Of a stretch of DNA of 64,000 nucleotides, positions 871 through 57,967 are shown in pieces (positions within the stretch are counted from its first letter, which is position 1; each line of letters opens with the position of its first letter). Source of the stretch: Antedon mediterranea (lineage: Eukaryota > Animalia > Echinodermata); assembly GCF_964355755.1 (NCBI RefSeq), contig NC_092676.1:9215888-9279887 (forward strand), written 5' to 3'. The translations under genes were made by a program, and so were the position numbers. The notes beneath the pieces were generated by a model. It did not search any database. It was not told where the DNA came from and was given only the letters and a program-made list of their open reading frames with translations.

Positions 871-3185
871 TTAATATCCTGCTTATAATATTGACTTTGA
901 CAATAAAAATTACATCTCCGTGTTGAGAAAATAACAGTTTAGACAATTTATCAGTCACTAGGTGGTAGAAAGTTGAAAACTATTTTATGGAGAAGATTTT
1001 TCAATAGCTTTTTTCAAGAGCTTCTTGGCTTGGCTAAGTCGAAACTGGTTTTAATTAATTAATTTTATCCTAAAAAAGTACAAGATTGCCCATATATTAT
1101 TAGGCTATCTAGGACCAGGTTCTTTCTATGAATATAGGCTAGGCTATATTTATATGTAACTCGGCGTTTACGCCAAAAAAACATGAGCCTGGTTTTTATT
1201 TAGTAGGCCTAGCCTAGTCGACAACATCATTCCCGCACTTTCATCGTTCATTTTATAAGTTGTCCGTCCTAAATAAGGGCCTAGCTAGGCTTACCTAGCC
1301 CATTAAGCCTAGCCTAAATTGTAGTCATCAGAAAGAGCACTAATAAAAAAAACAGATGCACAATAAGTAATCACAAACTCAGAGGATTTACAATTCCGAC
1401 TGTAATCGTTGAGTGTTATTTTTTCAATTAACGGCGCTGTTTCAATATTTAGCTCGTCTTTTTTTATTTCCTTTCATAATCATAGCTTAATTTTCTGAAT
1501 AGATCAATATTATCAGGAGTCGATGTTTCAAATGCAAGCCTATCAAAATGACTTCTAAGTTCATCATATGCAAAGCCATAAAAGCTAGAGTTTGTTATAT
1601 CTAGAATGCTTGGAGCTTTTATATGACCATAGCTAGGCCACTGGTTTTCCATTGTTAGCTTTGTTTGAAATTGGGCGGAAAAAGCTTGTGTACTTACTTG
1701 AACAATAGAAAGCTGGTGTATCAATTGTTCTTGCTTGAGCCTAAGATCCTCAACATGAAAAAACACTTAATATCCTGCTTATAATATTGACTTTGACAAT
1801 AAAAATTACATCTCCATGTTGAGAAAACAACAGTTTAGACAATTTATCAGTCACTAGGTGGTAGAAAGTTGAAAACTATTTTATGGAGAAGATTTTTCAA
1901 TAGCTTTTTTCAAGAGCTTCTTGGCTTGGCTAAGTCGAAACTGGTTTTAATTAATTAATTTTATCCTAAAAAAGTACAAGATTGCCCATATATTATTAGG
2001 CTATCTAGGACCAGGTTCTTTCTATGAATATAGGCTAGGCTATATTTATATGTAACTCGGCGTTTACGCCAAAAAAACATGAGCCTGGTTTTTATTTAGT
2101 AGGCCTAGCCTAGTCGACAACATCATTCCCGCACTTTCATCGTTCATTTTATAAGTTGTCCGTCCTAAATAAGGGCCTAGCTAGGCTTACCTAGCCCATT
2201 AAGCCTAGCCTAAATTGTAGTCATCAGAAAGAGCACTAATAAAAAAAACAGATGCACAATAAGTAATCACAAACTCAGAGGATTTACAATTCTGACTGTA
2301 ATCGTTGAGTGTTATTTCTTCAATTAACGGCGCTGTTTCAATATTTAGCTTGTCTGTTTTTATTTCCTTTCATAATCATAGCTTAATTTTCTGAATAGAT
2401 CAATATTATCAAGAGTCGATGTTTCAAATGCAAGCCTATCAAAATGACTTCTAAGTTCATCATATGCAAAGCCATAAAAGCTAGAGTTTGTTATATCTAG
2501 AATGCTTGGAGCTTGTATATGACCATAGCTAGGCCACTGGTATTCCATTGTTAGCTTTGTTTGAAATTTGGCGGAAAAAGCTTGTGTACTAATACTTGAA
2601 CAATAGAAAGCTGGTGTATCAATTGTTCTTGCTTGAGCCTAAGATCCTCAACATGAAAAAACACTTAATATCCCGCTTATAATATTGACTTTGACAATAA
2701 AAATTACATCTCCATGTTGAGAAAACAACAGTTTAGACAATTTATCAGTCACTAGCTGGTAGAAAGTTGAAAACTAATTTATAGAGAAGATTTTTCAATA
2801 GCTTTTTTCAAGAGCTTCTTGGCTTGGCTAAGACTGTCGAAACTGGTTTTAATTAATTAATTTTATCCTAAAAAAGTACAAGATTGCCCATATATTATAG
2901 GCTATCTAGGACCAGGTTCTTTCTATAAATATATGCTAGGCTATATTTATATGTAACTCGGCGTTTACGTCAAAAAAACATGAGCCTGGTTTTTATTTAG
3001 TAGGCCTAGCCTAGTCGACAACATCATTCCCGCACTTCCATCGTTCATTTTATAAGTAGTCCGTTCTAAATAAAAGGGCCTACCCTAGGCCTAGCTAGCT
3101 AGGCTTACCTGCCCATTAGGCCTAGCCTAAATTGTAGTCATCAGAAAGAGCACTAATCAAAAAACAGATACACAATAAGTAATCA
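475..3185 (+). repeat. 896-bp tandem repeat, 3 units
   Basis: Units start with tcacaaactcagagg at 475, 1371 and 2267. Repeated ORFs are offset by exactly 896 bp (568, 1464, 2360). Confidence 0.95.
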
Positions 3186-3234
3186 ATGATATATCAATAT
3201 TTTAACACACAAACAGAAAATGAAACCAACTTAC

Positions 3235-8950: not shown

Positions 8951-8954
8951 AGAT

Positions 8955-9830: not shown

Positions 9831-9861
9831 CTCAGAACACGCTTGTTAATGAACTCATCTC

Positions 9862-9867
9862 TTTATT
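9862..9867 (-). terminator. Candidate PFAS polyadenylation signal AATAAA
   Basis: tttatt on the plus strand about 650 bp past the stop, at the edge of an AT-rich UTR-like tract next to transposon sequence. Confidence 0.3.
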
Positions 9868-19250: not shown

Positions 19251-19361
19251 ATTCTTTAAAAAAATAAATTATTAAATATTAGATCTATATTATTTTATAT
19301 ATTATTATTTATTATTATTGATGTTTACACTAAAAAAGTATAACTATAAAGTATATGACTT

Positions 19362-20085
19362 ATAATAATAATAATAATAAGCTTTATTTAATCACGGATA
19401 CTTAACTTCAACTGAAAGTTGTTTTTCAGTAAGACCGTGTTTAAAGGAAAACACCAACAAAAATAAATGTAAAAAGACCTTAATTACTATCAAAAGAGAA
19501 AAAAAAAAAAAAAAACAATTACAATGAAATAAAATGAAACAAGGGTACACTTACTAACTATAAAATTAAATAATACACTACAGTACATTTAAATAAAGCT
19601 ACATGAAATTAGCAGTTAACAGTTTCTTAAAAAGAGAGACAGTGTTCACATTTTTAATATCTTCATTTAGCTCATTCCAAACAATTACAATGAAATAAAA
19701 TAAAACAAGCGTACACTTACTAACTATAAAATTAAATAATACACTACATTTAAATAAAGCTACATGAAATTAGCAGTTAACAGTTTCTTAAAAAGAGAGA
19801 CACTGTTCACATTTTTAATATCTTCATTTAGCTCATTCCTAACCTTGGCACCTCTATATGATAAGCTACGTTTTTGGTTTTGGTACTATTAAATTTGGCT
19901 TAGTTCTAATATTATAGTAATTGTTTTTGATATTGAATTTATTTTTATTAAATATGGAGGTGCAAGGTTGTTCATAATCTTAAACATAACAATAGCTTCA
20001 TTTACATATAATATTTCATCTAAGTTCATCCAATTTAGACTTTGTAGAGCTTGAGTACTAGAGTGATCTGTAATTCGCGTAGCTT
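19362..20085 (-). mobile_element. 3' end of a degenerate LINE (L2/Crack/CR1 group) with (TTA)n tail
   Basis: Translation SLNWMNL...VMFKIMNNLAPPYL...YNIR...KRSLSYRGAKV(W)NELNEDIKNVNSVSLFKKLL* is a typical ORF2 C-terminus. It has AATAAA plus a (tta)n tail and an internal ~165-bp tandem duplication (about 19513-19840). Confidence 0.8.
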
Positions 20086-20214
20086 CAGAGTCGATGTGGC
20101 AAGGTTAGATGGTGGTTGTTGTACGGTATCACCAAGCACATCAAACGTGTTACTTGAGATTGTGCTAATGCCATTTTATTTACAGTATAGAATAGGTTTA
20201 GATACAAACTTTTT

Positions 20215-20765
20215 GGGTATTGCTTTTTTTGTTGTTTGCGCTGTGAAATCAATAATTTTCCCAAAAATTGAAGTTTTTCACCCAAAAAAAAGGAAACTTA
20301 AAGGAATTTCAAATTTGTTTTCCCATAAATTGTCTCCTTATATAGTTCTAGTTGTTATCTAATCAATATTAATTGATTTAAAGGAGGTTTGCGCAGCTTT
20401 TTTTTTAGGTTTGCGCTGTGAAATCAGTAATTTTCCCAAAAATTGAAGTTTTTTACCCAAAAAAAGGCAAACTTAAAGGAATTTTAAATTTTTTCCCCAT
20501 AAATTGTCTCCCTATATAGGTCTAGTTGTGTTTTAATCAATATTAATTGATTTAAAGGAGGTTTGCGCAGCTTTTTTTGGAGGTTTGCGCTGTGAAATCA
20601 GTAATTTTCCCAAAAATTGAAGTTTTTCACCCAAAAAAAGTCAAACTTAAAGGAATTTTATATTTTTTCCTCATAAATTGTCTCCCTATACAGGTCTAGT
20701 TGTGTTTTAATCAATATTAATTTTTTTGTTGTTTGCGCAGTGTTTGCGCAGTTTAGCAATTACCC
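20215..20765. mobile_element. ~550-bp TIR element containing about 3 tandem ~175-bp repeats
   Basis: Ends are gggtattgc and gcaat(t)accc. Direct repeat aacttttt at 20207-20214 and 20766-20773 (8-bp TSD; 6 or 4 bp if the TIR is extended). Confidence 0.75.
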
Positions 20766-22789
20766 AACTTTTTAGGTAGTTCAAATCCAGGTTCACTTGC
20801 AATATTCTGTAAACTAAGAATTTGTTGCTCAAGAGACCAGTTTCTTTCACTCATTTCTTTAAAAGCTTTACTAAGGTGAACAAAATTTGAATGGATTTCT
20901 TGAATTAGTGTAGCTGTTGTTTTAATTCAGAAACTTTCTCATCAGTTTGCTTTATTTTCAGCTTTAGTGATGGGATCTGGTCCCATTATTTAGGTGTTTG
21001 AGTTGAACAATCAATTGCTTTCACAAACTCAGAGGATTTACAATTCTGACTGTAATCGTTGAGTGTTATTTCTTCAATTAACGGCGCTGTTCCAATATTT
21101 AGCTCGTCTTTTTTTATTTCCTTTCATAATCATAGCTTAATTTTCTGAATAGATCAATATTATCAGGAGTCGATGTTTCAAATGCAAGCCTATCAAAATG
21201 ACTTCTAAGTTCATCATATGCAAAGCCATAAAAGCTAGAGTTTGTTATATCTAGAATGCTTGGAGCTTTTATATGACCATAGCTAGGCCACTGGTTTTCC
21301 ATTGTTAGCTTTGTTTGAAATTGGGCGGAAAAAGCTTGTGTACTTACTTGAACAATAGAAAGCTGGTGCATCAATTGTTCTTGCTTGAGCCTAAGATCCT
21401 CAACATGAAAAAACACTTAATATCCTGCTTATAATATTGACTTTGACAATAAAAATTACATCTCCATGTTGAGAAAACAACAGTTTAGACAATTTATCAG
21501 TCACTAGGTGGTAGAAAGTTGAAAACTATTTTATGGAGAAGATTTTTCAATAGCTTTTTTCAAGAGCTTCTTGGCTTGGCTAAGTCGAAACTGGTTTTAA
21601 TTAATTAATTTTATCCTAAAAAAGTACAAGATTGCCCATATATTATTAGGCTATCTAGGACCAGGTTCTTTCTATGAATATAGGCTAGGCTATATTTATA
21701 TGTAACTCGGCGTTTACGCCAAAAAAACATGAGCCTGGTTTTTATTTAGTAGGCCTGGCCTAGTCGACAACATCATTCCCGCACTTTCATCGTTCATTTT
21801 ATAAGTTGTCCGTCCTAAATAAGGGCCTAGCTAGGCTTACCTAGCCCATTAAGCCTAGCCTAAATTGTAGTCATCAGAAAGAGCACTAATAAAAAAAACA
21901 GATGCACAATAAGTAATCACAAACTCAGAGGATTTACAATTCCGACTGTAATCGTTGAGTGTTATTTCTTCAATTAACGGCGCTGTTTCAATATTTAGCT
22001 CGTCTTTTTTTATTTCCTTTCATAATCATAGCTTAATTTTCTGAATAGATCAATATTATCAGGAGTCGATGTTTCAAATGCAAGCCTATCAAAATGACTT
22101 CTAAGTTCATCATATGCAAAGCCATAAAAGCTAGAGTTTGTTATATCTAGAATGCTTGGAGCTTTTATATGACCATAGCTAGGCCACTGGTTTTCCATTG
22201 TTAGCTTTGTTTGAAATTTGGCGGAAAAAGCTTGTGTACTTACTTGAACAATAGAAAGCTGGTGTATCAATTGTTCTTGCTTGAGCCTAAGATCCTCAAC
22301 ATGAAAAAAACACTTAATATCCCGCTTATAATATTGACTTTGACAATAAAAATTACATCTCCATGTTGAGAAAACAACAGTTTAGACAATTTATCAGTCA
22401 CTAGGTGGTAGAAAGTTGAAAACTAATTTATAGAGAAGATTTTTCAATAGCTTTTTTCAAGAGCGCCGTGAAGTTGGTTACTTATTCCTTATTCGACATT
22501 CGTCAATGGAAGTTGGTTCCTTATTCGACGTTCGACATTCGCTAGGCTAGGCCAAAATTTCGAAAATGATAATTTCCCAGCGGTAAATATGCCGTGCGCC
22601 ACCAACCAATCTCCTGCTGGTACTTATTCCCTATTCGACATTCATTCGTGAAGTTGGTTCCTTATTCGACGTTCGCTAGGCCGCGGCCGACCGGCTGGCC
22701 CAAATTCGTACCAAAGTAGACCTAGTGTAGATGTACCTATTTTATCACAGATTTACATTTTTTAGTTCCGATATTACGACCATACCAAC

Positions 22790-25700
22790 GCCTCGGGCCG
22801 GGTTCACAATAGTATAGATTGACGTAGTATGGTCCTGGAATTCCAGAAATGTGCCACTTGCCCCGACCCAGATCGGGCAAGTACGTGTTTTAACGCAATT
22901 TCAAATGCGTATTTTTAGCAATAATTTACTAAGAATTAATAGCACCACTTTTAAAGTGGCCATATGACCACACCCCGACGCCTCGGGCCGGGTACACAAT
23001 AATATAGATTGACGTAGTATGGTCCTGGCATTCCAGAAATGTGCCACTCGCCCCGGCCCAGTGCGGGCAAGTACGGGTTTTAAAGCAATTTAAAATGCGT
23101 ATTTTTAGTGTTATTTTACTAAGTATTAATAGCACCACTTTTAAAGTGGCAATATGACCACACCCCGACGTCTCGGGCCGGCCGCCGGGTACACAATAGT
23201 ATAGATTGACGTAGTATGGTCCTGGCTTTCCAGAAATGTGCCACTTGCCCCGGCCCAGTGCGGGCAAGTACGGATTTTAAAGCAATTTAAAATGCGTATT
23301 TTTGGCATTAATTTATTAAACACCACTTTTAAAGTGGCCATATGACCACACACCGACGCATCGGGCCGGGTACACAATAGTATAGATTGACGTAGTATGG
23401 TCCTGGCATTCCAGAAATGTGCCACCTGCCCCGGCCCAGTGCGTGCAAGTACGTGTTTTAAAGCAATTTCAAATGCGTATTTTTAGCAAAAATTTACTAA
23501 GAATTAATAGCACCACTTTTAAAGTGGCCATATGACCACACCCCGACGCCTCGGGTCGAGTTCACAATAGTATAGATTGATGTACAATGGTCCTGGCATT
23601 CCATAAATGTACCACTTGCCCCGGCCCAGTGCGGGCAAGTACGTGTTTAAAAGCAATTTCAAATTCGTATTTTTAGCATTAATTTACTAAGAATTAATAG
23701 CACCACTTTTAAAGTGGCCATATGACCACACCCCAACGCCTCGGGCCGGGAACACAATAGTATAGATTGACGTAGAATGGTCCTGGCATTCCAGAAATGT
23801 GCCACTTGCCCCGGCCCAGTGCGGGCAAGTACGGATTTTAAAGCAATTTAAAATGCGTATTTTTAGCATTAATTTAGTAAACACCACTTTTAAAGTGGCC
23901 ATATGACCACACCCCGACGCCTCGGGCCGGGTACACAATAGTATAGATTGACTTAGTATGGTCCTGGATTTCCAGAAATGTGCCACTTGCCCCGGCCCAG
24001 TGCGGGCAAGTACGTGTTTAAAAGCAATTTCAAATGCGTATTTTTAGCATTAATTTACTAAGAATTAATAGCACCACATTTAAAGTGGCCATATGACCAC
24101 ACCCCGACGCCTCGGGCCGGGAACACAATAGTATAGATTAACGTAGTATGGTCCTGGCATTCCAGAAATATGCCACTTGCCCCGGCCCAGTGCGGGCAAG
24201 TACGGATTTTAAAGCAATTTAAAATGCGTATTTTTAGCATTAATTTAGTAAACACCACTTTTAAAGTGGCCATATGACCACACCCCGACGCCTCGGGCCG
24301 GGTACACAATAGTATAGATTGACGTAGTATGGTCCTGGCTTTCCAGAAATGTGCCACTTGCCCCGGCCCAGTGCGGGAAAGTACGGATTTTAAAGCAATT
24401 TAAAATGCGTGTTTTTAGTGTTATTTTACTAAGTATTAATAGCACCACTTTTAAAGTGGCAATATGACCACACCCCGACGCCTCGGGCCGGATTCACAAT
24501 AGTATGGATTGACGTAGAATGGTCCGGACATTCCAGAAATGTGCCACTTGCCCCGGCCCAGTGCGGGCAAGTACGGGTTTTAAAGCAATTTAAAATGCGT
24601 ATTTTTAGTGTTATTTTACTAAGTATTAATAGCACCACTTTTAAAGTGGCAATATGACCGCACCCCGACGCCTCGGGCCGGGTACACAATAGTATAGATT
24701 GACGTAGTATGGTCCTGGCTTTCCAGAAATGTGCCACTTGCCCCGGCCCAGGGCGAGTACGGATTTTAAAGCAATTTAAAATGCGTATTTTTGGCATTAA
24801 TTTAGTAAACACCACTTTTAAAGTGGCCATATGACCACACCCCGACGCATCGGGCCGGGTACACAATAGTATAGATTGACGTAGTATGGTCCTGACATTC
24901 TAGAAATGTGCCACCTGCCCCGGCGGCCCAGTGCGTGCAAGTACGTGTTTTAAAGCAATTTCAAATGCGTATTTTTAGCAAAAATTTACTAAGAATTAAT
25001 AGCACCACTTTTAAAGTGGCCATATGACCAAACCCCGACGCCTCGGGTCGGGTTCACAATAGTATAGATTGATGTAGAATGGTCCTGGCATTCCATAAAT
25101 GTGCCACTTGCCCCGGCCCAGTGCGGGCAAGTAAGTGTTTAAAAGCAATTTCAAATGCGTATTTTTAGCATTAATTTACTAAGAATTAATAGCACCACAT
25201 TTAAAGTGGCCATATGACCACACCCCGACACCTCGGGCCGGGAACACAATAGTATAGATTGACGTAGTATGGTCCTGGCATTCCAGAAATATGCCACTTG
25301 CCCCGGCCCAGTGCGAGCAAGTACTGATTTTAAAGCAATTTAAAATGCGTATTTTTAGCATTAGTAAACACCACTTTTAAAGTGGCCATATGACCACACC
25401 CCGACGCCTCGGGCCGGGTACACAATAGTATAGATTGACGTATTATGGTCCTGGCTTTCCAGAAATGTGCCACTTGCCCCGGCCCAGTGCGGGCAAGTAC
25501 GTGTTTAAAAGCAATTTCAAATGCGTATTTTTAGCATTAATTTACTAAGAATTAATAGCACCACATTTAAAGTGGCCATATGACCACACCCCGACGCCTC
25601 GGGCCGGGAACACAATAGTATAGATTGACGTAGTATGGTCCTGGCATTCCAGAAATATGCCACTTGCCCCGGCCCAGTGCGGGCAAGTACGGATTTTAAA

Positions 25701-26039
25701 GCAATTTAAAATGCGTATTTTTAGCATTAATTTAGTAAACACCACTTTTAAAGTGGCCATATGACCACACCCCGATGCCTCGGGCCGGGTACACAATAGT
25801 ATAGATTGACGTAGTATGGTCCTGGCTTTCCAGAAATGTGCCACTTGCCCCGGCCTAGTGCGGGCAAGTACGGATTTTAAAGCAATTTAAAATGCGTATT
25901 TTTAGCATTAATTTAGTAAACACCACTTTTAAAGTGGCCATATGACCACACCCCGATGCCTCGGGCCGGGTACACAATAGTATAGATTGACGTAGTATGG
26001 TCCTGGCTTTCCAGAAATGTGCCACTTGCCCCGGCCCAG
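22790..26039 (-). repeat. 181/190-bp satellite, left arm (about 17-18 monomers)
   Basis: Tandem monomers in reverse orientation; ORF offsets of 371 bp equal 190+181. Confidence 0.95.
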
Positions 26040-29000
26040 ATATTTCTGGAATGTCAGGACCATTCTACGTCAATCCATACTATTGTGAACCCGGCCCGAG
26101 GCGTCGGGGTGTGGTCATATTGCCACTTTAAAAGTAGTGCTGTTAATACTTAGTAAAAAAACACTAAATATACGCATTTTAAATTGCTTTAAAACACGTA
26201 CTTGTCCGCACTGGGCCGGGGCAAGTGGCACATTTCTGGAATGCCAGGACAATACTACGTCAATATATACTATTGTGTACCCGGCCCGAGGCGTCGGGGT
26301 GCGGTCATATGGCCACTTTAAAAGTGGTGTTTACTAAATTAATGCTAAAAATACGCATTTGAAATTGCTTTAAAACACGTACTTGCCCGCACTGGGCCGG
26401 GGCAAGTGGCATATTTCTGGAATGCCAGGACCATTCTACGTCAATCTATACTATCGTGAACCCGGCCCGAGGCGTCGGGGTGTGGTCATATGGCCACTTT
26501 AAAAGTGGTGCTATTAATTCTTAGTAATTATTGGTAAAAATACTCATTTGAAATTGCTTTAAAACACGTACTTGCCCGCACTGGGCCGTGGCAGGTGGCA
26601 CATTTATGGCATGTCAGGACCATTCTACATCAATCTATACTATTGTGAACCCGGCCCGAGGCGTCGGGGTGTGGTCATATTGCCATTTTAAAAGTGGTGC
26701 TATTAATACTTAGTAAAATAACACTAAAAACACGCATTTTAAATTGCTTTAAAATCCGTACTTGCCCGCACTGGGCCGGGGCAAGTGGCACATTTCTGGA
26801 ATGCCAGGACCATACTACGTCAATCTATACTATCGTGAACCCGACTCGAGGCGTCGGGGTGTGGTCATATGGCCACTTTAAAAGTGGTGTTTACTAAATT
26901 AATGCTAAAAATACGCATTTTACCCGCACTGGGCCGGGGCAAGTGGCACATTTCTGGAATGCCAGGACCATACTACGTCAATCTATACTATTGTGTACCC
27001 GGCCCGAGGCGTCGGAGTGTGGTCATATGGCCACTTTAAATGTGGTGCTTTTAATTATTCTTAGTAAATTAATGCTAAAAATACGCATTTGAAATTGCTT
27101 TTAAACACGTACTTTCCCGCAATGGGCTGGGGCAAGTGGCACATTTATGGAATGCCAGGACCATTCTACATCAATCTATACTATTGTGAACCCGACCCGA
27201 GGCGTCGGGGTGTGGTCATGGCCACTTTAAAACTGGTGTTTACTATATTAATGCTAAAAATACGCATTTTAAATTGCTTTAAAATCCGTACTTGCCCGCA
27301 CTGGGCCGTTGCAAGTGGCACATTTCTGGAAAACCAGGACCATACTACGTCAATCTATAATATTGTGTATCCGGCCTGAGGCGTCGGGGTGTGGTCATAT
27401 GGCCACTTTAAAAGTGGTGCTATTATAATACTTAGTTAAAATAACACTAAAAATACACATTTTAAATTGCTTTAAAACACGTACTTGCCCGCACTGGGCC
27501 GGGACAAGTGGCACATTTCTGGAATGCCAGGACCATACTACGTCAATCTATATTATCGTGAACCCGACCCGAAGCGTCGGTGTGTGGTCATATTATGGCC
27601 ACTTTAAAAGTGGTGTTTACTAAATTAATGCTAAAAATACGCATTTGAAATTGCTTTTAAACACGTACTTGCCCGCACTGGGCCGGGGCAAGTGGCACAT
27701 TTCTGGAAAGCCAGGACCATACTGCGTCAATCTATACTATTGTGTACCCGGCCCGAGGCGTCGGGGTGTGGTCATATGGCCACTTTAAAAGTGGTGCTAT
27801 TAATACTTAGTAAAATAACACTAAAAATACGCATTTTAAATTGCTTTAAAACACGTACTTGCCCCCACTGGGCCGGGGCAAGTGGCACATTTCTAGTAAG
27901 TCTGGACCTTTCTACGTCAATCCATACTATTGTGAACCCGGCCCGAGGCGTCGGGGTGTGGTCATATTGCCACTTTAAAAGTGGTGCTATTAATACTTAG
28001 TAAAATAACACTAAAAATACGCATTTTAAATTGCTTTAAAATCCGTACTTGCCCGCACTGGGCCGGGGCAAGTGGCATATTTCGGGAATGCCAGGACCAT
28101 ACTACGTTAATCCATACTTGTGTTCCCGGCCCGAGGCGTCGGGGTGTGGTCATATGGCCACTTTAAATGTGGTGCTATTAATTCTTAGTAAATTAATGCT
28201 AAAAATACGCATTTGAAATTGATTTTAAACACGTACTTGCCCGCACTGGGCCGGGGCAAGTGGCACATTTCTGGAAAGCCAGGACCATACTAAGTCAATC
28301 TATACTATTGTGTACCCGGCCCGAGGCGTCGGGGTGTGGTCATATGGCCACTTTAAAAGTGGTGTTTACTAAATTAATGCTAAAAATACGCATTTTAAAT
28401 TGCTTTAAAATCCGTACTTGCCCGCACTGGGCCGGGGCAAGTGGCACATTTCTGGAATGCCAGGACCATTCTCCGTCAATCTATACTATTGTGTTCCCGG
28501 CCCGAGGCGTTGGGGTGTGGTCATATGGCCACTTTATAAGTGGTGCTATTAATTCTTAGTAAATAATGCTAAAAATACGCATTTGAAATTGCTTTTAAAC
28601 ACGTACTTGCCCGCACTGGGCCGGGGCAAGTGGCACATTTCTGGAAAGTCAGGACCATACTACGTCAATCTATACTATTGTGTACCCGGCCCGAGGCGTC
28701 GGGGTGTGGTCATATGGCCACTTTAAAAGTGGTGTTTACTAAATTAATGCCAAAAATACGCATTTTAAATTGCTTTAAAATCCGTACTCGCCCGCACTGG
28801 GCCGGGGCAAGTGGCACATTTCTAGAAAGTCTGGACCTTTCTACGTCAATCTATATTATTGTGTACCCGGCCCGAGGCGTCGGGGTGTGGTCATATTGCC
28901 ACTTTAAAAGTGGTGCTATTAATACTTAGTAAAATAACACTAAAAATACGCATTTTAAATTGCTTTAAAATCCGTACTTGCCCGCACTGGGCCGGGGCAA

Positions 29001-32000
29001 GTGGCATATTTCTGGAATGCCAGGACCATACTACGTTAATCTATACTATTGTGTTCCCGGCCCGAGGCGTCGGGGTGTGGTCATATGGCCACTTTAAATG
29101 TGGTGCTATTAATTCTTAGTAAATTAATGCTAAAAATACGCATTTGAAATTGATTTTAAACACGTACTTGCCCGCACTGGGCCGGGGCAAGTGGCACATT
29201 TCTGGAAAGCCAGGACCATACTAAGTCAATCTATACTATTGTGTACCCGGCCCGAGGCGTCGGGGTGTGGTCATATGGCCACTTTAAAAGTGGTGTTTAC
29301 TAAATTAATGCTAAAAATACGCATTTTAAATTGCTTTAAAATCCGTACTTGCCCGCACTGGGCCGGGGCAAGTGGCACATTTCTGGAATGCCAGGACCAT
29401 TCTACGTCAATCTATACTATTGTGTTCCCGGCCCGAGGCGTTGGGGTGTGGTCATATGGCCACTTTAAAAGTGGTGCTATTAATTCTTAGTAAATTAATG
29501 CTAAAAATACGCATTTGAAATTGCTTTTAAACACGTACTTGCCCGCACTGGGCCGGGGCAAGTGGCACATTTCTGGAAAGTCAGGACCACACTACGTCAA
29601 TCTATACTATTGTGTACCCGGCCCGAGGCGTCGGGGTGTGGTCATATGGCCACTTTAAAAGTGGTGTTTACTAAATTAATGCCAAAAATACGCATTTTAA
29701 ATTGCTTTAAAATCCGTACTCGCCCGCACTGGGCCGGGGCAAGTGGCACATTTCTAGAAAGTCTGGACCTTTCTACGTCAATCTATATTATTGTGTACCC
29801 GGCCCGAGGCGTCGGGGTGTGGTCATATTGCCACTTTAAAAGTGGTGCTATTAATACTTAGTAAAATAACACTAAAAATACGCATTTTAAATTGCTTTAA
29901 AATCCGTACTTGCCCGCACTGGGCCGGGGCAAGTGGCATATTTCTGGAATGCCAGGACCATACTACGTTAATCTATACTATTGTGTTCCCGGCCCGAGGC
30001 GTCGGGGTGTGGTCATATGGCCACTTTAAATGTGGTGCTATTAATTCTTAGTAAATTAATGCTAAAAATACGCATTTGAAATTGATTTTAAACACGTACT
30101 TGCCCGCACTGGGCCGGGGCAAGTGGCACATTTCTGGAAAGCCAGGACCATACTAAGTCAATCTATACTATTGTGTACCCGGCCCGAGGCGTCGGGGTGT
30201 GGTCATATGGCCACTTTAAAAGTGGTGTTTACTAAATTAATGCTAAAAATACGCATTTTAAATTGCTTTAAAATCCGTACTTGCCCGCACTGGGCCGGGG
30301 CAAGTGGCACATTTCTGGAATGCCAGGACAATTCTACGTCAATCTATACTATTGTGTTCCCGGCCCGAGGCGTTGGGGTGTGGTCATATGGCCACTTTAA
30401 AAGTGGTGCTATTAATTCTTAGTAAATTAATGCTAAAAATACGCATTTGAAATTGCTTTTAAACACGTACTTGCCCGCACTGGGCCGGGGCAAGTGGCAC
30501 ATTTCTGGAAAGTCAGGACCACACTACGTCAATCTATACTATTGTGTACCCGGCCCGAGGCGTCGGGGTGTGGTCATATGGCCACTTTAAAAGTGGTGTT
30601 TACTAAATTAATGCCAAAAATACGCATTTTAAATTGCTTTAAAATCCGTACTCGCCCGCACTGGGCCGGGGCAAGTAGCACATTTCTGGAAAGTCAGGAC
30701 CATACTACGTCAATCTATACTATTGTGTACCCGGCCCGAGGCGTCGGGGTGTGGTCATATTGCCACTTTAAAAGTGGTGCTATTAATACTTAGTAAAATA
30801 ACACTAAAAATACGCATTTTAAATTGCTTTAAAATCCGTACTTGCCCGCACTGGTGGGCCGAGGCAAGTGGCATATTTCTGGAATGCCAGGACCATACTA
30901 CGTTAATCTATACTATTGTGTACCCGGCCCGAGGCGTCGGGGTGTGGTCATATGGCCACTTTAAATGTGGTGCTATTAATTCTTAGTAAATTAATGCTAA
31001 AAATACGCATTTGAAATTGATTTTAAACACGTACTTGCCCGCACTGGGCCGGGGCAAGTGGCACATTTCTGGAAAGCCAGGACCATACTAAGTCAATCTA
31101 TACTATTGTGTACCCGGCCCGAGGCGTCGGGGTGTGGTCATATGGCCACTTTAAAAGTGGTGTTTACTAAATTAATGCTAAAAATACGCATTTTAAATTG
31201 CTTTAAAATCCGTACTTGCCCGCACTGGGCCGGGGCAAGTGGCACATTTCTGGAATGCCAGGACCATTCTACGTCAATCTATACTATTGTGTTCCCGGCC
31301 CAAGGCGTTGGGGTGTGGTCATATGGCCACTTTAAAAGTGGTGCTATTAATTCTTAGTAAATTAATGCTAAAAATACGCATTTGAATTTGCTTTTAAACA
31401 CGTACTTGCCCGCACTGGGCCGGGGCAAGTGGCACATTTCTGGAAAGTCAGGACCATACTACGTCAATCTATACTATTGTGTACCCGGCCCGAGGCGTCG
31501 CGGTGTGGTCATATGGCCACTTTAAAAGTGGTGTTTACTAAATTAATGCCAAAAATACGCATTTTAAATTGCTTTAAAATCCGTACTCGCCCGCACTGGG
31601 CCGGGGCAAGGGGCACATTTCTGGAAAGCCAGGACCATACTACGTCAATCTATACTATTGTGTACCCGGCCCGAGGCGTCGGGGTGCGGTCATATGGCCA
31701 CTTTAAAAGTGATGCTATTAATACTTAGTAAAATAACACTAAAAATACGCATTTTAAAATGCTTTAAAACTCGTACTTGCCCGCACTGGGCCGGGGAAAG
31801 TGGCACATTTCTGGAATGCCAGGACCATACTACGTCAATCTATATTATTGTGTACCCGGCCCGAGGCGTCGGGGTGTGGTCATATGGCCACTTTAAAAGT
31901 GGTGCTATTAATACTTAGTAAAATAACACTAAAAATACGCATTTTAAATTGCTTTAAAACACGTACTTGCCCGCACTGGGCCGGGGCAAGTGGCACATTT

Positions 32001-35000
32001 CTAGAAAGTCTGGACCTTTCTACGTCAATCCATACTATTGTGAACCCGGCCCGAGGCGTCGGGGTGTGGTAATATTGCCACTTTAAAAGTGGTGCTATTA
32101 ATACTTAGTAAAATAACACTAAAAATACGCATTTAAAATTGCTTTAAAATCCGTACTTGCCCGCACTGGGCCGGGGCAAGTGGCATATTTCTGGAATGCC
32201 AGGACCATACTACGTTAATCTATACTATTGTGTTCCCGGCCCGAGGCGTCGGGGTGTGGTCATATGGCCACTTTAAATGTGGTGCTATTAATTCTTAGTA
32301 AATTAATGCTAAAAATACGCATTTGAAATTGCTTTAAAACACGTACTTGCCCGCACTGGGCCGGGACAAGTGGCACATTTCTGGAATGCCAGGACCATAC
32401 TACGTCAATCTATATTATCGTGAACCCGACCCGAAGCGTCGGTGTGTGGTCATATTATGGCCACTTTAAAAGTGGTGTTTACTAAATTAATGCTAAAAAT
32501 ACGCATTTGAAATTGCTTTTAAACACGTACTTGCCCGCACTGGGCCGGGGCAAGTGGTACGTTTATGGAATGCCCGGACCATTCTACATCAATCTATACT
32601 ATTGTGAACCCGACCCGAGGCGTCGGGGTGTGGTCATATGGCCACTTTAAAAGTGGTGTTTACTAAATTAATGCTAAAAATACGCATTTTAAATTGCTTT
32701 AAAATCCGTTCTTGCCCGCACTGGGCCGGGGCAAGTGGCACATTTCTGAAAAGCCAGGACCATACTGCGTCAATCTATACTATTGTGTACCCGGCCCGAG
32801 GCGTCGGGGTGTGGTCATATGGCCACTTTAAAAGTGGTGCTATTAATACTTAGTAAAATAACACTAAAAATACGCATTTTAAATTGCTTTAAAACACGTA
32901 CTTGCCTGCACTGGGCCGGGGCAAGTGGCACATTTCTAGAAAGTCTGGACCTTTCTACGTCAATCCATACTATTGTGAACCCGGCCCGAGGCGTCGGGGT
33001 GTGGTCATATTGCCACTTTAAAAGTGGTGCTATTAATACTTAGTAAAATAACACTAAAAATACGCATTTTAAATTGCTTTAAAATCCGTACTTGCCCGCA
33101 CTGGGCCGGGGCAAGTGGCATATTTCGGGAATGCCAGGACCATACTACGTTAATCCATACTTGTGTTCCCGGCCCGAGGCGTCGGGGTGTGGTCATATGG
33201 CCACTTTAAATGTGGTGCTATTAATTCTTAGTAAATTAATGCTAAAAATACGCATTTGAAATTGATTTTAAACACGTACTTGCCCGCACTGGGCCGGGGC
33301 AAGTGGCACATTTCTGGAAAGCCAGGACCATACTAAGTCAATCTATACTATTGTGTACCCGGCCCGAGGCGTCGGGGTGTGGTCATATGGCCACTTTAAA
33401 AGTGGTGTTTACTAAATTAATGCTAAAAATACGCATTTTAAATTGCTTTAAAATCCGTACTTGCCCGCACTGGGCCGGGGCAAGTGGCACATTTCTGGAA
33501 AGCCAGGACCATACTGCGTCAATCTATACTATTGTGTACCCGGCCCAAGGCGTCGGGGTGTGGTCATATGGACACTTTAAAAGTGGTGCTATTAATACTT
33601 AGTAAAATAACACTAAAAATACGCATTTTAAATTGCTTTAAAACACGTACTTGCCCGCACTGGGCCGGGGCAAGTGGCACATTTCTGGAAAGCCAGGACC
33701 ATACTACGTCAATCTATACTATTGTGTACCCGGCCCGAGGCGTCGGGGTGCGGTCATATTGCCACTTTAAAAGTGGTGCTATTAATACTTAGTAAAATAA
33801 CACTAAAAATACGCATTTTAAATTGCTTTAAAACCCGTACTTGCCCGCACTGGGCCGGGGAAAGTGGCACATTTCTGGAATGCCAGGACCATACTACGTC
33901 AATCTATATTTTTGTGTACCCGGCCCGAGGCGTCGGGGTGTGGTCATATGGCCACTTTAAAAGTGGTGCTATTAATACTTAGTAAAATAACACTAAAAAT
34001 ACGCATTTTAAATTGCTTTAAAACACGTACTTGCCCGCACTGGGCCGGGGCAAGTGGCACATTTCTGGAATGTCCGGACCATTCTACGTCAATCCATACT
34101 ATTGTGAATCCGGCCCGAGGCGTCGGGGTGTGGTCATATTGCCACTTTAAAAGTGGTGCTATTAATACTTAGTAAAATAACACTAAAAATACGCATTTAA
34201 AATTGCTTTAAAATCCGTACTTGCCCGCACTGGGCCGGGGCAAGTGGCATATTTCTGGAATGCCAGGACCATACTACGTTAATCTATACTATTGTGTTCT
34301 CGGCCCGAGGCGTCGGGGTGTGGTCATATGGCCACTTTAAATGTGGTGCTATTAATTCTTAGTAAATTAATGCTAAAAATACGCATTTGAAATTGCTTTA
34401 AAACACGTACTTGCCCGCACTGGGCCGGGACAAGTGGCACATTTCTGGAATGCCAGGACCATACTACGTCAATCTATATTATCGTGAACCCGACCCGAAG
34501 CGTCGGTGTGTGGTCATATTATGGCCACTTTAAAAGTGGTGTTTACTAAATTAATGCTAAAAATACGCATTTGAAATTGCTTTTAAACACGTACTTGCCC
34601 GCACTGGGCCGGGGCAAGTGGCACGTTTATGGAATGCCCGGACCATTCTACATCAATCTATACTATTGTGAACCCGACCCGAGGCGTCGGGGTGTGGTCA
34701 TATGGCCACTTTAAAAGTGGTGTTTACTAAATTAATGCTAAAAATACGCATTTTAAATTGCTTTAAAATCCGTTCTTGCCCGCACTGGGCCGGGGCAAGT
34801 GGCACATTTCTGAAAAGCCAGGACCATACTGCGTCAATCTATACTATTGTGTACCCGGCCCGAGGCGTCGGGGTGTGGTCATATGGCCACTTTAAAAGTG
34901 GTGCTATTAATACTTAGTAAAATAACACTAAAAATACGCATTTTAAATTGCTTTAAAACACGTACTTGCCTGCACTGGGCCTGGGCAAGTGGCACATTTC

Positions 35001-38000
35001 TAGAAAGTCTGGACCTTTCTACGTCAATCCATACTATTGTGAACCCGGCCCGAGGCGTCGGGGTGTGGTCATATTGCCACTTTAAAAGTGGTGCTATTAA
35101 TACTTAGTAAAATAACACTAAAAATACGCATTTGAAATTGCTTTTAAACACGTACTTGCCCGCACTGGGCCGGGGCAAGTGGCACATTTCTGAAAAGTCA
35201 GGAACATACTACGTCAATCTATACTATTGTGTACCCGGCCCGAGGCGTCGGGGTGTGGTCATATGGCCACTTTAAAAGTGGTGTTTACTAAATTAATGCC
35301 AAAAATACGCCTTTTAAATTGCTTTAAAACACGTACTTGCCCGCACTGGGCCGGGGCAAGTGGCACATTTCTGGAATGCCAGGACCATACTACGGCAATC
35401 TATATTATCGTGAACCCGACCCGAAGCGTCGGTGTGTGGTCATATTATGGCCACTTTAAAAGTGGTGTTTACTAAATTAATGCTAAAAATACGCATTTGA
35501 AATTGCTTTTAAACACGTACTTGCCCGCACTGGGCCGGGGCAAGTGGCACATTTATGGAAAGCCAGGACCATACTGCGTCAATCTATACTATTGTGTACC
35601 CGGCCCAAGGCGTCGGGGTGTGGTCATATGGCCACTTTAAAAGTGGTGCTATTAATACTTAGTAAAATAACACTAAAAATACGCATTTTAAATTGCTTTA
35701 AAACACGTACTTGCCCGCGCTGGGCCGGGGCAAGTGGCACATTTCTGGAAAGCCAGGACCATACTACGTCAATCCATACTATTGTGAACCCGGCCCGAGG
35801 CGTCGGGGTGTGGTCATATTGCCACTTTAAAAGTGGTGCTATTAATACTTAGTAAAATAACACTAAAAATACGCATTTTAAATTGCTTTAAAATCCGTAC
35901 TTGCCCGCACTGGGCCGGGGCAAGTGGCACATTTCTGGAATGCCAGGACCATTCTACGTCAATCTATACTATTGTGTTCCCGGCCCGAGGCGTTGGGGTG
36001 TGGTCATATGGCCACTTTAAAAGTGGTGCTATTAATTCTTAGTAAATTAATGCTAAAAATACGCATTTGAAATTGCTTTTAAACACGTACTTGCCCGCAC
36101 TGGGCCGGGGCAAGTGGCACATTTCTGAAAAGTCAGGAACATACTACGTCAATCTATACTATTGTGTACCCGGCCCGAGGCGTCGGGGTGTGGTCATATG
36201 GCCACTTTAAAAGTGGTGTTTACTAAATTAATGCCAAAAATACACATTTTAAATTGCTTTAAAATCCGTACTCGCCCGCACTGGGCCGGGGCAAGTGGCA
36301 CATTTCTGGAAAGCCAGGACCATACTACGTCAATCTATACTATTGTGTACCCGGCCCGAGGCGTCGGGGTGCGGTCATATTGCCACTTTAAAAGTGGTGC
36401 TATTAATACTTAGTAAAATAACACTAAAAATACGCATTTTAAATTGCTTTAAAACCCGTACTTGCCCGCACTGGGCCGGGGAAAGTGGCACATTTCTGGA
36501 ATGCCAGGACCATACTACGTCAATCTATATTTTTGTGTACCCGGCCCGAGGCGTCGGGGTGTGGTCATATGGCCACTTTAAAAGTGGTGCTATTAATACT
36601 TAGTAAAATAACACTAAAAATACGCATTTTAAATTGCTTTAAAACACGTACTTGCCCGCACTGGGCCGGGGCAAGTGGCACATTTCTGGAATGTCCGGAC
36701 CATTCTACGTCAATCCATACTATTGTGAATCCGGCCCGAGGCGTCGGGGTGTGGTCATATTGCCACTTTAAAAGTGGTGCTATTAATACTTAGTAAAATA
36801 ACACTAAAAACACGCATTTTAAATTGCTTTAAAATCCGTATTTGCCCGCACTGGGCCGGGGCAAGTGGCACATTTCTGGAAAGCCAGGACCATACTACGT
36901 CAATCTATACTATTGTGTACCCGGCCCGAGGCGTCGGGGTGTGGTCATATGGCCACTTTAAAAGTGGTGCTATTAATTCTTAGTAAATTATTGCTAAAAA
37001 TACGCATTTGAAATTGCTTTAAAACACGTACTTGCCCGCACTGGGCCGGGGCAAGTGGCACATTTGTGGAATGCCAGGACCATTCTACGTCAATCTATAC
37101 TATTGTGTTCCCGGCCCGAGGCGTTGGGGTGTGGTCATATGGCCACTTTAAAAGTGGTGCTATTAATTCTTAGTAAATTAATGCTAAAAATACGCATTTT
37201 AAATTGCTTTTAAACACGTACTTGCCCGCACTGGGCCGGGGCAAGTGGCACATTTCTGGAAAGTCAGGACCATACTACGTCAATCTATACTATTGTGTAC
37301 CCGGCCCGAGGCGTCGGGGTGTGGTCATATGGCCACTTTAAAAGTGGTGTTTACTAAATTAATGCCAAAAATACGCATTTTAAATTGCTTTAAAATCCGT
37401 ACTCGCCCGCACTGGGCCGGGGCAAGTGGCACATTTCTGGAAAGCCAGGACCATACTACGTCAATCTATACTATTGTGTACCCGGCGGCCGGCCCGAGAC
37501 GTCGGGGTGTGGTCATATTGCCACTTTAAAAGTGGTGCTATTAATACTTAGTAAAATAACACTAAAAATACGCATTTTAAATTGCTTTAAAACCCGTACT
37601 TGCCCGCACTGGGCCGGGGCAATTGGCACATTTCTGGAATGCCAGGACCATACTACGTCAATCTATATTATTGTGTACCCGGCCCGAGGCGTCGGGGTGT
37701 GGTCATATGGCCACTTTAAAAGTGGTGCTATTAATTCTTAGTAAATTATTGCTAAAAATATGCATTTGAAATTGCTTTAAAACACGTACTTGCCCGCACT
37801 GGGCCGGGGCAGGTGGCACATTTCTGGAATGCCAGGACCATACTACGTCAATCTATACTATTGTGTACCCGACGCGAGGCGTCGGTGTGTGGTCATATGG
37901 CCACTTTAAAAGTGGTGTTTACTAAATTAATTCTAAAAATACGCATTTTAAATTGCTTTAAAATCCGTACTTGCCCGATCTGGGTCGGGGCAAGTGGCAC

Positions 38001-38062
38001 ATTTCTGGAATTCCAGGACCATACTACGTCAATCTATACTATTGTGAACCCGGCCCGAGGCG
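26040..38062 (+). repeat. 181/190-bp satellite, right arm (about 64 monomers) with higher-order repeats
   Basis: Orientation flips at ...ccggcccag|atatttctgga. A 5-monomer period of 931-935 bp starts at 28260, 29191, 30123 and 31058. A 2064-bp period links 32638 and 34702. Confidence 0.95.
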
Positions 38063-38405
38063 TTGGTATGGTCGTAATATCGGAACTAAAAAACGTAAAT
38101 CTGTGATAAAATAGGTACATCTACACTAGGTCTACTTTGGTACGAATTTGGGCCAGCCGGTCGGCCGCGGCCTAGCGAACGTCGAATAAGGAACCAACTT
38201 CACGAATGAATGTCGAATAGGGAATAAGTAACAGCAGGAGATTGGTTGGTGGCGCACGGCATATTTACCGCTGGGAAATTATCATTTTCGAAATTTTGGC
38301 CTAGCCTAGCGAATGTCGAACGTCGAATAAGGAACCAACTTCCATTGACGAATGTCGAATAAGGAATAAGTAACCAACTTCACGGCGCTTTTTTCAAGAG
38401 CTTCT

Positions 38406-38476
38406 TTTTTTTTTTTATATGTGAACTTTATTCAATCAATTGTACATTTGTTATAATGGTAACCACAATAAGACAG
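38406..38476 (-). mobile_element. ~70-bp retroposed 3' fragment with AATAAA and poly(A) tail
   Basis: Minus strand reads ...gattgAATAAAgttcacatat(A)12. Absent from the equivalent cttcttggcttggc site in all other 896-bp units. Confidence 0.75.
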
Positions 38477-38892
38477 TGGCTTGGCTAAGACTGTCGAAAC
38501 TGGTTTTAATTAATTAATTTTATCCTAAAAAAAGTACAAGATTGCCCATATATTATAGGCTATCTAGGACCAGGTTCTTTCTATAAATATATGCTAGGCT
38601 ATATTTATATGTAACTCGGCGTTTACGTCATAAAAACATGAGCCTGGTTTTTATTTAGTAGGCCTAGCCTAGTCGACAACATCATTCCCGCACTTCCATC
38701 GTTCATTTTATAAGTAGTCCGTTCTAAATAAAAGGGCCTACCCTAGGCCTAGCTAGCTAGGCTTACCTGCCCATTAGGCCTAGCCTAAATTGTAGTCATC
38801 AGAAAGAGCACTAATCAAAAAACAGATACACAACAAGTAATCAATGATATATCAATATTTTAACACACAAACAGAAAATGAAACCAACTTAC

Positions 38893-39065: not shown

Positions 39066-41740
39066 TAGTAAGTGAGTCAAAAGGTTGATACGAAGAATTA
39101 ATAATGTCATTGAATGATATAATAATTGCATAATAATAAAGTAATACTAATTATAATCGAATGAAGAAATGATACATTTATTCTATAATATCATTCGTAA
39201 TAAAAAAAATTTACACAATTACGATTATTGACTCATTTAAAATCATGAACGACGCGAGTTGCGAACCTTTCAATTGATTTGATTAAAAATGACTATAGGA
39301 GGCTCCAAATATCTACGAAATATGTTATCCGAGATACAGAACAAAGAATTTGTAAACCAATTGAATATTTTTAATGACAGTAAATATGAAAATGTGTGTG
39401 TTTATTGGAGTGTGCATATCCATTCAACAGTATCGACTGTAAACATCGTGAGGTGGTGGTTTCCACATTCGTATGATCAAACGGTACAGGGTATGATCAA
39501 CTAGCGTTCGTGTTCCCACCTATAATCATCCATTCATAGAAGTACTGATGAAGATATCAATCTGTGGCAACAATAGAATGGACCCGAGACCTGGCTATCT
39601 TCGACTTTTAAATAATAGAAAGTTTTGAAAAATTTGTTTCTAGAAATGTACGTTGTATGATGTATAGGCCTATGTTTATTAAAAAATTGTTGTAGTTTTC
39701 TAAATTACATTGTACAAGTTGCGAAGAGAAAACTGTTATTTGATCGTAAGTTAACGTGTACATAAAGCAAAACTATCCATCCATAGGGTCATTTATCTTT
39801 TGCTAATTAATCTCCTCTTGCTTGATTGCACTCAAGCAACAATACTACCATTGTAATAGCACAATGGAAGATTAAAAGATAAACTAAATCACACAGTACA
39901 GTCTAAATACTAAAACAACTAAAACAATTCAATACAAAACTTAATTTAAAGGTATTAGATCAGGCATCAAGTCTGCCCAAAATAATGATAAAAGTATGCA
40001 CATCACTCACCTAAAATAGAGAGCCAATATCCTCATTGAGTGCATGGAGGTATACCTCCATGTTGAGTGTAATAAAAATAACTTCAAAACTTTAAGTGTA
40101 CAAACTGTACAACGTGTAAATATCACAATCTTCTTTAACTTGAATTGTACTTTAAACTTAGTACTCTTTTAGTATACCGTATATAATATATATATATATG
40201 TCTTTCAGTACTTTCAAATAGGTTCTCGAACTCAACGTTGTTCGAAATGTAAAAGTATATAAAGTTGAAATTTAATTAAAGTTGGAGTGTCCAGCACGTC
40301 CGATGGCAAGAGGCAAAGAGAAAGAAATCTCCCAAAACATACCCTAATGTCATCCAAAATTGTCAAACAAGGTTTACCCCTATTGGTCCATTCTTGTTAC
40401 TAGGCAAAACTCAAGAGGGGTAAATTGACCGATTGGTCAATTCCCAAATTTAGGACCTCCCATTTAAATAGATAAACATGTAAGAAGATTAAAACAGAAC
40501 AAAGAGAATTCTTAAAAGGATTAATTAACAAAATGATTAAAACATATGCAGTTCCAAGGAAAAGCAATATAATGCAAACATCTTAATGCTATATTGATAA
40601 ACAATCTTGCCCACCCACTGCACCCAGCTGCATTACATTGTAGGTACATTGGAAAATAATAAAAAGTAAAGGAAAAGAAAACATGTCTAAAACATGACAG
40701 GGTTACATCCTCCCCTAACATAAATTGCTACCTCCGGGAGCAAAAACACAAAATATCAAACATTACAAGTAGAGTCACCAGTCAAAGTGGAAAAAAAAAG
40801 GATTAAAATCGTATCTGTTTAATTAATCTTGGTGAACAGGAAGTGTGATATAAACTCATTCTGCCTGGACACAATTTCAGTAATATTCACAATAACTTTT
40901 TCGTTATTAAGTTGATTGCTATAGTCTTGAATTTTTTGAAGAATTATTATAGATTTTTTTGCAACAAAATCTTTCCAGTAGTTCAAAAGTTATGATAAAA
41001 TATCTAATTTTTCTGAGATATCCTTGTGGCTATTCTAATTATTACACATACCCCACTGCTCAAACGCATGTTGGCTATTCCAAACTTGCTGGCTAGTCTG
41101 AAGATAGTACAGTTGGTAGGGATTCTCATAGAGATATTTTCACTATAATATATCTATGGCATTCTCAATGTGTACACATAAGTAATTAAATAATTCCTTG
41201 CTGTTGGAAGTTTATTTTTAATATCAATAAAGTAAATAACAAAATAAAGAATTAGCTATAATTATAACACATTTAAAATGAATGCCTTTTATAATTAGTT
41301 ACCTAAAGTAACTTTACTCCACTTTTTTTTACATATAATATAATAATTTATTTGGAAGCTACACTTTTGAAACAGTGGCACACTTCTTGAATGAAGGTGC
41401 ATCCAGAGTAAGTAAAATAAATAAATATTATTTAACAATAGGCCTATTAGTACAAGAGTCAACTTATTTGACAAAAGAACGCATTTCAATTAGTCAATTT
41501 ACATGTTGAAAAATAATCAAAATATTCATTAAGTACCTAAATATAATTACAATTTTCACTTTAATGTGTTTTTATTATTCTGTGCCTGCTAATTTTTTAG
41601 ATAGACAATATAATGAACAAAGAACAGAATCATCATAGTTAGCTAATTCTCGTTGTGAGCGGACGTGTTCATATCGAGCTCCGCTAGGCTACCCATTGTG
41701 TGGATACTAGGCCAGTCAACGTAGGCATACTGTAGTCTAC

Positions 41741-49502: not shown

Positions 49503-57967
<8,465 letters not shown>

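What the first reader, a model, noticed from the sequence alone, without database searches (positions are those of the whole stretch)
22462..38389. A 15.9-kb transposon that is almost pure satellite DNA in two inverted arms (giant Foldback-like element)
Seen: near-perfect ~330-bp outer TIRs, a clean 9-bp TSD, empty sites in sister repeats, and about 82 monomers of a 181/190-bp repeat that flips orientation once. There is no coding sequence. Diagnostic monomer variants are mirrored (ccgggccggccgccggg at about 23175; cccggcggccggcccgagac at about 37481), so the satellite is part of the TIRs. Established: Drosophila FB and sea urchin TU elements have modular tandem-repeat arms, FB makes 9-bp TSDs, and FB elements promote rearrangements. 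Inference: this is a recently mobile vehicle that seeds multi-kb satellite arrays into genic regions, or an array that expanded after insertion.
Basis: partly seen in the sequence, partly recalled or inferred. Interest (0 to 1): 0.75.

Follow-up and report, generated by a model that had tools for sequence, protein, structure and literature searches.

The report
Satellite-filled foldback transposon, feather star
A 15.9-kb gene-less insertion, 96% made of one 181/190-base repeat laid out as two opposed arrays between matching transposon-style ends, sits upstream of a purine-synthesis gene of what is likely a feather star; it is likely a young jumping element moved by an enzyme encoded elsewhere, a large example of a design already described in flies and beetles.

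Summary
22462-38389 has 347-bp inverted ends with 2 mismatches, a 9-bp target duplication, 4 empty sister sites, about 17 + 64 monomers in opposed arrays and no middle domain. The host is likely an Antedon feather star. Public contigs of another sample and of a second organism carry the same end at exactly 22462 with other flanks, and deleted variants occur, so this is a family and the 9-bp reading is favoured. Each end has four 33-bp sub-terminal repeats, predicted transposase sites. The arms mirror each other only for the first 2-3 monomers, then are reshuffled. Private-variant counts suggest most of the array (about 9-12 kb) was already there at landing, with later growth in the right arm. 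Best reading: non-autonomous foldback element, probably Mutator/Rehavkus-type; no transposase could be sought. The design is published (Tetris; Tribolium Rehavkus with arms over 11 kb), and this scan noted it before at two other loci of this genome and in another genome. New member of a known kind.

The parts
22453..22461 (.). left target-site duplication TTTTTCAAG
   Evidence: identical to 38390-38398; single copy at empty sister sites
22462..22787 (+). left outer, non-tandem part of the inverted arm (flanking domain)
   Evidence: 2 mismatches against the right end; one contig of 342-356 nt covers it in two runs
22470..22682 (+). four 33-bp sub-terminal repeats (22470, 22509, 22612, 22650), predicted transposase-binding sites, behind an 8-bp terminal motif
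   Evidence: core CCTTATTCGAC absent from the monomer (best 5-6 mismatches of 12); other contigs share the end and leave at 22501. Function inferred
22788..26039 (+). left array, about 17.4 monomers of 181/190 bp
   Evidence: all 17 full monomers distinct, internal 8-monomer duplication at about 2%
26039..26040 (.). junction of the two arms: mid-monomer on both sides, no spacer, no shared letters (or a 2-letter filler)
   Evidence: sequence; normal monomer continuations leave at 26039 and join at 26040/26042
26040..38063 (-). right array, about 64.3 monomers, opposite orientation
27741..31477 (-). young 5-monomer (932-bp) higher-order repeat, four copies, inside the right array
   Evidence: lag-5 distance 3.6 against 13-17 at other lags; 739-bp exact match; 1 difference in 932 bp between two copies
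38064..38389 (-). right outer, non-tandem part of the inverted arm with four 33-bp repeats
38390..38398 (.). right target-site duplication TTTTTCAAG
2804..2812 (+). closest empty sister site (others at 1010, 1906, 21556) in the ~896-bp tandem unit of the duplicated block
   Evidence: shares diagnostic letters with the filled unit

Best explanation
This is a gene-less insertion with two opposed satellite arrays between near-identical inverted ends, likely a young non-autonomous foldback DNA transposon that a Mutator/Rehavkus-type transposase made elsewhere in the genome would cut and paste. Shown: ends, 9-bp duplication, empty sister sites, sub-terminal repeats, absence of a middle domain, other flanks at the same terminus in other samples. 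Inferred steps: (1) the transposase binds the terminal motif and the four 33-bp repeats at each end, not the 190-bp monomer; (2) a 9-bp staggered cut made the duplication; (3) an ancestor lost its middle domain, including any transposase gene, by a deletion that fused the two arrays in mid-monomer; (4) unequal exchange and conversion within and between the arms and with other copies shuffle and multiply monomers much faster than point mutation, so the arms share one pool of variants but not one order; (5) the element was already about 9-12 kb when it landed, and the middle of the right arm grew by block duplication around or after that time.
For: Ends 2 of 347 bp different, 9-bp duplication, 4 of 5 sister sites empty. 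Run X5 (another sample, another study) has one contig with 30 other letters joined at 22462; run X6 (organism B) has a 948-nt contig whose match starts at 22462 after 792 other letters; run X4 has a contig starting at 22462. Deleted variants: skips of 99 and 229 bases in X1 and X4, and in X5 the first ~90 bases of the end joined to a reversed monomer. Four 33-bp repeats per end, like the terminal motif plus sub-terminal repeats that Muta1 transposase needs (PMC5499845, passages). MULE duplications are 8-11 bp, Rehavkus 9 bp (PMC6446971, passages). Mean monomer distance left-left 7.2%, right-right 7.5%, left-right 7.4%. Private variants: 0.42% in L1-17, 0.33% in R1-17, 1.17% in R56-64, 0.19-0.22% in R18-55, against 0.24-0.50% per lineage for the duplicated flanks and 0.29% for the ends. 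Collapsing monomers within 1, 2 or 3 differences leaves about 12.1, 10.8 or 8.7 kb.
Against: No transposase was found or could be sought: no genome is held, so the superfamily rests on duplication length and architecture only. Other copies were seen by one end each, one contig each, so their duplications and array sizes are unknown; tables were cut (54 and 1649 rows unseen). X1 and X4 are one sample and may be the assembled animal. The central junction and the array length rest on the assembly alone. The dating is rough: intervals overlap, conversion from other loci can import differences and make monomers look older, 21 of 81 monomers have an identical twin over the 181 core columns, and an empty site could also be a precise excision (over 90% for Muta1 in yeast).
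Confidence: 0.66

Rival explanations
1. A small foldback element with a few monomers landed here and the arrays grew in place afterwards, so the element never moved at this size.
For: 21 of 81 monomers have an identical twin; a 932-bp block repeats with 1 difference and blocks of 2.1, 2.6 and 5.0 kb offset share exact runs of 359-560 bp; arms are very unequal (17 and 64); Tribolium TCsat12 grew to 80.5 kb from transposon arms (PMC12581902).
Against: All 17 left monomers are distinct and the left 8-monomer duplication is 2.1% diverged, above the 0.5-1.3% of the flank duplication; the inner right monomers carry 1.17% private variants; even a 3-difference collapse leaves 43 monomers.
Confidence: 0.15
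2. The monomer is an older host satellite that a short element with these ends captured; repair between the ends copied it into both arms. This changes the origin of the cargo, not the way the element moves.
For: The monomer has no significant likeness to the outer end (best 8-10 letter matches) and lacks the sub-terminal motif. It is abundant and tandem in organism B as well as A, and in organism A summed depth on the monomer is over 100 times that of the outer-end contig (93,637 against 715 in X1), more than the 41 monomers per end here (the tool warns that summed depth is no copy number). Other contigs share only the first 40 bases of the end.
Against: The same ratios would follow from larger copies or from sister families that carry the monomer; in Tetris and Rehavkus the published direction is transposon to satellite.
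Confidence: 0.2
3. Same anatomy, but the transposase in trans belongs to another superfamily (P/Galileo-like, hAT or Merlin).
For: Foldback form has arisen more than once, with Galileo in the P superfamily (PMC4079207); no transposase is linked here.
Against: 9-bp duplication with the end fixed at 22462; hAT is mostly 8 bp; Galileo 7 bp and Merlin 8-9 bp are recalled, not from a call.
Confidence: 0.12
4. The inversion or the size is an assembly or chimeric-read artefact.
For: Long near-identical blocks in the right arm (739 bp exact) are where assemblers miscount.
Against: A fold-back chimera would be a perfect mirror about the junction; here the monomers on either side differ and the longest exact left-right run inside the arrays is 302 bp, away from the junction. 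70 of 81 monomers are distinct. Both flanks and the duplication agree with the empty sites, and two inward-pointing ends require one flip somewhere.
Confidence: 0.05

Closest known systems
Rehavkus-type foldback elements of Tribolium (TfSat06, TfSat23/Rehavkus-3_TC, TfSat25/TCsat12); PMC12581902, passages, supplement search hits, preprint passages
   Same: Inverted ends followed by satellite-length tandem repeats (164-167 bp for TfSat15 and TfSat23); up to 50 repeats and arms over 11 kb; transposition proposed as the way the satellite spreads.
   Different: The Tribolium elements are drawn with a central part; here there is none. No sequence comparison with Rehavkus was possible. Here an insertion with duplication and empty sites can be dated against its flanks.
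Tetris of Drosophila virilis; PMC4079207, parts 1-2 of 6 and passages
   Same: Non-autonomous; flanking domain then ~220-bp tandem repeats in both arms; 8-10 bp duplications; short relatives (DAIBAM) share the ends; assigned to Mutator on duplication size; no autonomous copy found.
   Different: Complete Tetris arms are at most 1,735 bp with a few repeats plus inner and middle domains; its long arrays are not in complete copies. Here arms are 3.6 and 12.3 kb with both ends and the duplication intact.
Muta1 of Aedes aegypti (type 2 foldback MULE); PMC5499845, passages
   Same: Terminal motif plus sub-terminal repeats; 8-9 bp duplication; unequal ends in a natural non-autonomous copy still move.
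   Different: Its repeats are the 12-bp binding sites themselves; here the candidate sites are the 33-bp repeats and the 190-bp monomer lacks them, so the argument that more repeats help transposition need not apply.
Drosophila FB and sea-urchin TU elements (named in PMC4079207; details recalled, papers not read)
   Same: Long modular inverted arms of variable length without coding capacity.
   Different: Their repeat units are short (tens of bases, recalled), not 181/190 bp.

Membership tests
Foldback transposons (structural class) | long inverted arms with an outer non-tandem domain | tested here: met
   347 bp, 2 mismatches
Foldback transposons (structural class) | tandem repeats inside the arms, variable in number between arms | tested here: met
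   17.4 and 64.3 copies
Foldback transposons (structural class) | target-site duplication and empty site | tested here: met
   9 bp; 4 of 5 sister sites empty
Foldback transposons (structural class) | dispersed copies with the same ends at other sites | tested here: met
   other flanks at 22462 in X5 and X6, one contig each; one end only
Foldback transposons (structural class) | inner and middle domain (optional, variable) | tested here: not met
   arms abut at 26039/26040; absence is compatible with a deleted derivative
Mutator/MULE, Rehavkus group | 8-11 bp duplication (Rehavkus 9 bp) | tested here: met
   against PMC6446971
Mutator/MULE, Rehavkus group | long terminal inverted repeats with sub-terminal repeats | tested here: met
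   four 33-bp repeats per end
Mutator/MULE, Rehavkus group | MULE-type DDE transposase in a copy sharing these ends | not testable with these tools
   no coding sequence here; no genome held
Mutator/MULE, Rehavkus group | sequence likeness of the ends to Repbase or Dfam Rehavkus entries | not testable with these tools

The most novel reading that the evidence does not exclude
Feather stars run a satellite-delivery system: one set of transposon ends picks up unrelated 180-200 bp satellites and moves 10-20 kb spacer-less palindromes intact, as whole units, to sites beside genes, so that a main satellite of the genus lives and spreads chiefly as mobile cargo.
Probability: 0.3. Interest if true: 0.62.

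Novelty: new member of a known kind. Interest (0 to 1): 0.38.

Why it matters
Whether long satellite arrays are carried whole by transposition or grow after a small element lands is argued mostly from distributions. This copy has both ends, a duplication, empty sister sites 20 kb away and a flank duplication that serves as a clock, so the question can be tested at one locus and then across copies. It also suggests that a mostly palindromic element of 10 kb or more can still be cut and pasted. The design itself is published, which limits the surprise.

Tried and rejected
Own genome: none held, so no count of copies, duplications or transposase partner. Junction test: of the pieces listed when 4 of 11 listed runs were laid on 25985-26095, none bridges 26039/26040 and no opposite-strand joint is listed; 387 rows were not shown and the tool says a hole proves nothing, since assembled contigs drop rare joins between abundant repeats. 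No listed piece bridges the left flank and the end either. Organism B has no cover at 22634-22777 at 85% likeness; not used as evidence. No RNA holder listed; X5 is only guessed to be RNA. Metagenome scans with an end pattern and a monomer pattern: 0 matches each. Rfam on 19000-24000: 0 matches to E 1. Look-ups of the end and of three monomers among the scan's earlier windows: no real look-alike, so the two similar elements noted in this genome are probably other families; untested. No second copy of end or monomer elsewhere in the window. First monomer split failed and was redone. Paper searches for crinoid or echinoderm cases listed none on such an element; only listings were seen, and most subscription papers are not held. 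The FARE paper was not held.
Full report
Observation. The element spans 22462-38389 (15,928 bp). Its ends are inverted copies with 2 mismatches in the first 347 bp; ungapped identity holds to 424 bp. TTTTTCAAG flanks both ends. The motif that precedes the site occurs 5 times in the window; 4 of 5 are empty with a single 9-mer, and the one at 2804 shares diagnostic letters with the filled unit. The target has AGC on both sides, so 11, 13 and 15 bp are formally possible. TRF gives 17.4 copies at 22788-26039 and 64.3 at 26042-38063; anchor splitting gives 18 + 65 pieces, 81 full, mostly 190 or 181 bp. The arrays are 15,276 bp, 96%. ORFs in them are repeat read-through; of 3 scanned, none passed a Pfam cut-off. 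Rfam finds nothing over the left end.

Host and setting. A GART exon matches Antedon mediterranea at 96% and Anneissia japonica at 76%, so the host is likely an Antedon feather star. PFAS lies on the minus strand from about 19250 to 10515; 4 of 6 exon frames tested hit FGAM synthase models, and the two most 5' did not, so the start is my reading of the translation. The element is thus about 3.2 kb upstream of it. GART residues 203-1000 map to 49506-57964; residues 1-202 are not in the window. Window 1-10357 recurs at 20535-49390 with 0.5-1.3% substitutions; only the second copy has this element, a LINE and a short poly(A)-tailed insert.

Anatomy of the ends. Behind an 8-bp terminal motif each end has four 33-bp repeats in two pairs. 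Their core is absent from the monomer, and the outer end has no significant likeness to the monomer. This resembles the terminal motif plus sub-terminal repeats on which Muta1 transposase binding and excision depend (PMC5499845, passages); that they bind a transposase here is inferred.

Anatomy of the arrays. The arms point inward and meet at 26039/26040, both in mid-monomer, with no spacer and no shared letters; a single strand across the junction folds into a long hairpin, as any such palindrome would. The mirror holds only near the ends: L1 and R1 share end-specific variants, L2 pairs with R3 (2 differences in 197), L9-L10 with R7-R8, and the rest is out of order. Mean distances within and between arms are alike (7.2, 7.5, 7.4%), so the arms draw on one pool of variants. 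70 of 81 monomers are distinct. The left arm holds an 8-monomer duplication at 2.1%; the right arm holds a 5-monomer higher-order repeat and longer block copies.

Is it a family? No genome is held. A run search listed 11 runs, of which I laid 4. In X4 a 356-nt contig starts at exactly 22462; in X5, another sample and study of organism A, one contig joins 30 other letters at 22462; in X6, organism B, a 948-nt contig matches from 22462 after 792 other letters, with 15 substitutions and 5 gaps. This fixes the end at 22462, hence 9 bp, and shows other insertion sites, by one end each. X1 and X4 are one sample and may be the assembled animal. Deleted forms exist: skips of 99 and 229 bases (X1, X4) and a short end joined to a reversed monomer (X5). 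Contigs in all four runs share only the first 40 bases and leave at 22501, the end of the first 33-bp repeat, and three in X1 give a consensus with a variant terminal motif: sister elements with shared ends, as DAIBAM shares those of Tetris. The outer-end contig has depth 715 (X1) and 535 (X4) while the listed monomer-variant contigs have 25-71, a rough hint of some ten or more ends; the monomer is over 100 times deeper than the outer end. The tool warns that these are not copy numbers, and its tables were cut.

Did it move large? Private variants per site are 0.42% (0.23-0.72) in L1-17, 0.33% (0.16-0.60) in R1-17, 0.22% and 0.19% in R18-35 and R36-55, 0 in R41-50 and 1.17% (0.70-1.82) in R56-64, against 0.37% (0.28-0.48) per lineage for the pooled flank duplication and 0.29% for the ends (two partial monomers left out). 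If the insertion followed the flank duplication, the outer and innermost monomers are about as old as or older than the landing, and the middle of the right arm may be younger. Collapsing near-identical monomers leaves about 14.0, 12.1, 10.8 or 8.7 kb at 0, 1, 2 or 3 differences. Against this: intervals overlap, conversion can import differences, 21 of 81 monomers have identical twins, the empty copy could be a precise excision, and the two flank copies could be haplotypes.

Artefact? A fold-back read would give a perfect mirror at the junction, which is not seen. The junction and length still rest on the assembly; the contig test was uninformative (see Tried and rejected).

Comparison. Tetris has the same order of domains, 8-10 bp duplications and no known autonomous copy, but complete arms of at most 1,735 bp (PMC4079207, parts 1-2 of 6 and passages). 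Tribolium Rehavkus-type elements carry up to 50 repeats, TfSat06 arms exceed 11 kb, and one repeat grew to 80.5 kb (PMC12581902, passages and supplement hits; preprint passages; the figures of their supplements were not seen and may show duplications or spacer-less copies). MULE duplications are 8-11 bp and Rehavkus 9 bp (PMC6446971, passages). It passes the structural tests for a foldback element; Mutator membership is likely but untested for want of a transposase. Searches for a crinoid or echinoderm report listed none (listings only). The scan noted the same design at two other loci of this genome and in another genome; those notes pointed me to the Rehavkus comparison, which I checked in the paper, and are not counted as support.

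Verdict. Real, young, cleanly bounded satellite-filled foldback element; new member of a known kind; interest 0.38.

Noticed in passing
window 1-10357 and 20535-49390: A block of at least 10 kb occurs twice, 0.5-1.3% diverged, on either side of PFAS. It may be a true tandem duplication or two haplotypes assembled in series.
   Followed up: partly
window 10515-19250 and 49506-57964: PFAS (minus strand) lies upstream of GART exons for residues 203-1000, and GART residues 1-202 are not in the window. PFAS, and this element, may sit inside a GART intron of over 49 kb: two genes of one pathway nested on opposite strands, or a partial GART copy.
   Followed up: partly
window 41632-45094: LINE with an open endonuclease plus reverse-transcriptase frame of 1068 codons (41711-44917) and an (AATAA)n tail, absent from the sister block.
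   Followed up: partly
window 38405-38476: A 71-bp insert 6 bases from the right duplication, absent from all four sister units; on the minus strand it ends in AATAAA and a poly(A) run, like a short retroposed 3' end.
   Followed up: partly
window 475-3185, 21021-22461, 38399-38843: An ~896-bp tandem unit (3 + 2 copies) is the target; it holds a 100-123 codon open frame with no Pfam hit and is also seen in organism B.
   Followed up: partly
window 22461-22525, run X5: One contig reads to 22525 and goes back to 22461, as if one end were inserted into or doubled within another.
   Followed up: no
window 8510-8929 and 47164-47963: Fragments that read like a Gypsy-type integrase end (my recall; no Pfam hit) in both copies of the block.
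   Followed up: no
window 19513-19843 and 20222-20740: Short tandem repeats of 161 and 174 bp just upstream of PFAS, unrelated to the monomer by the search.
   Followed up: no
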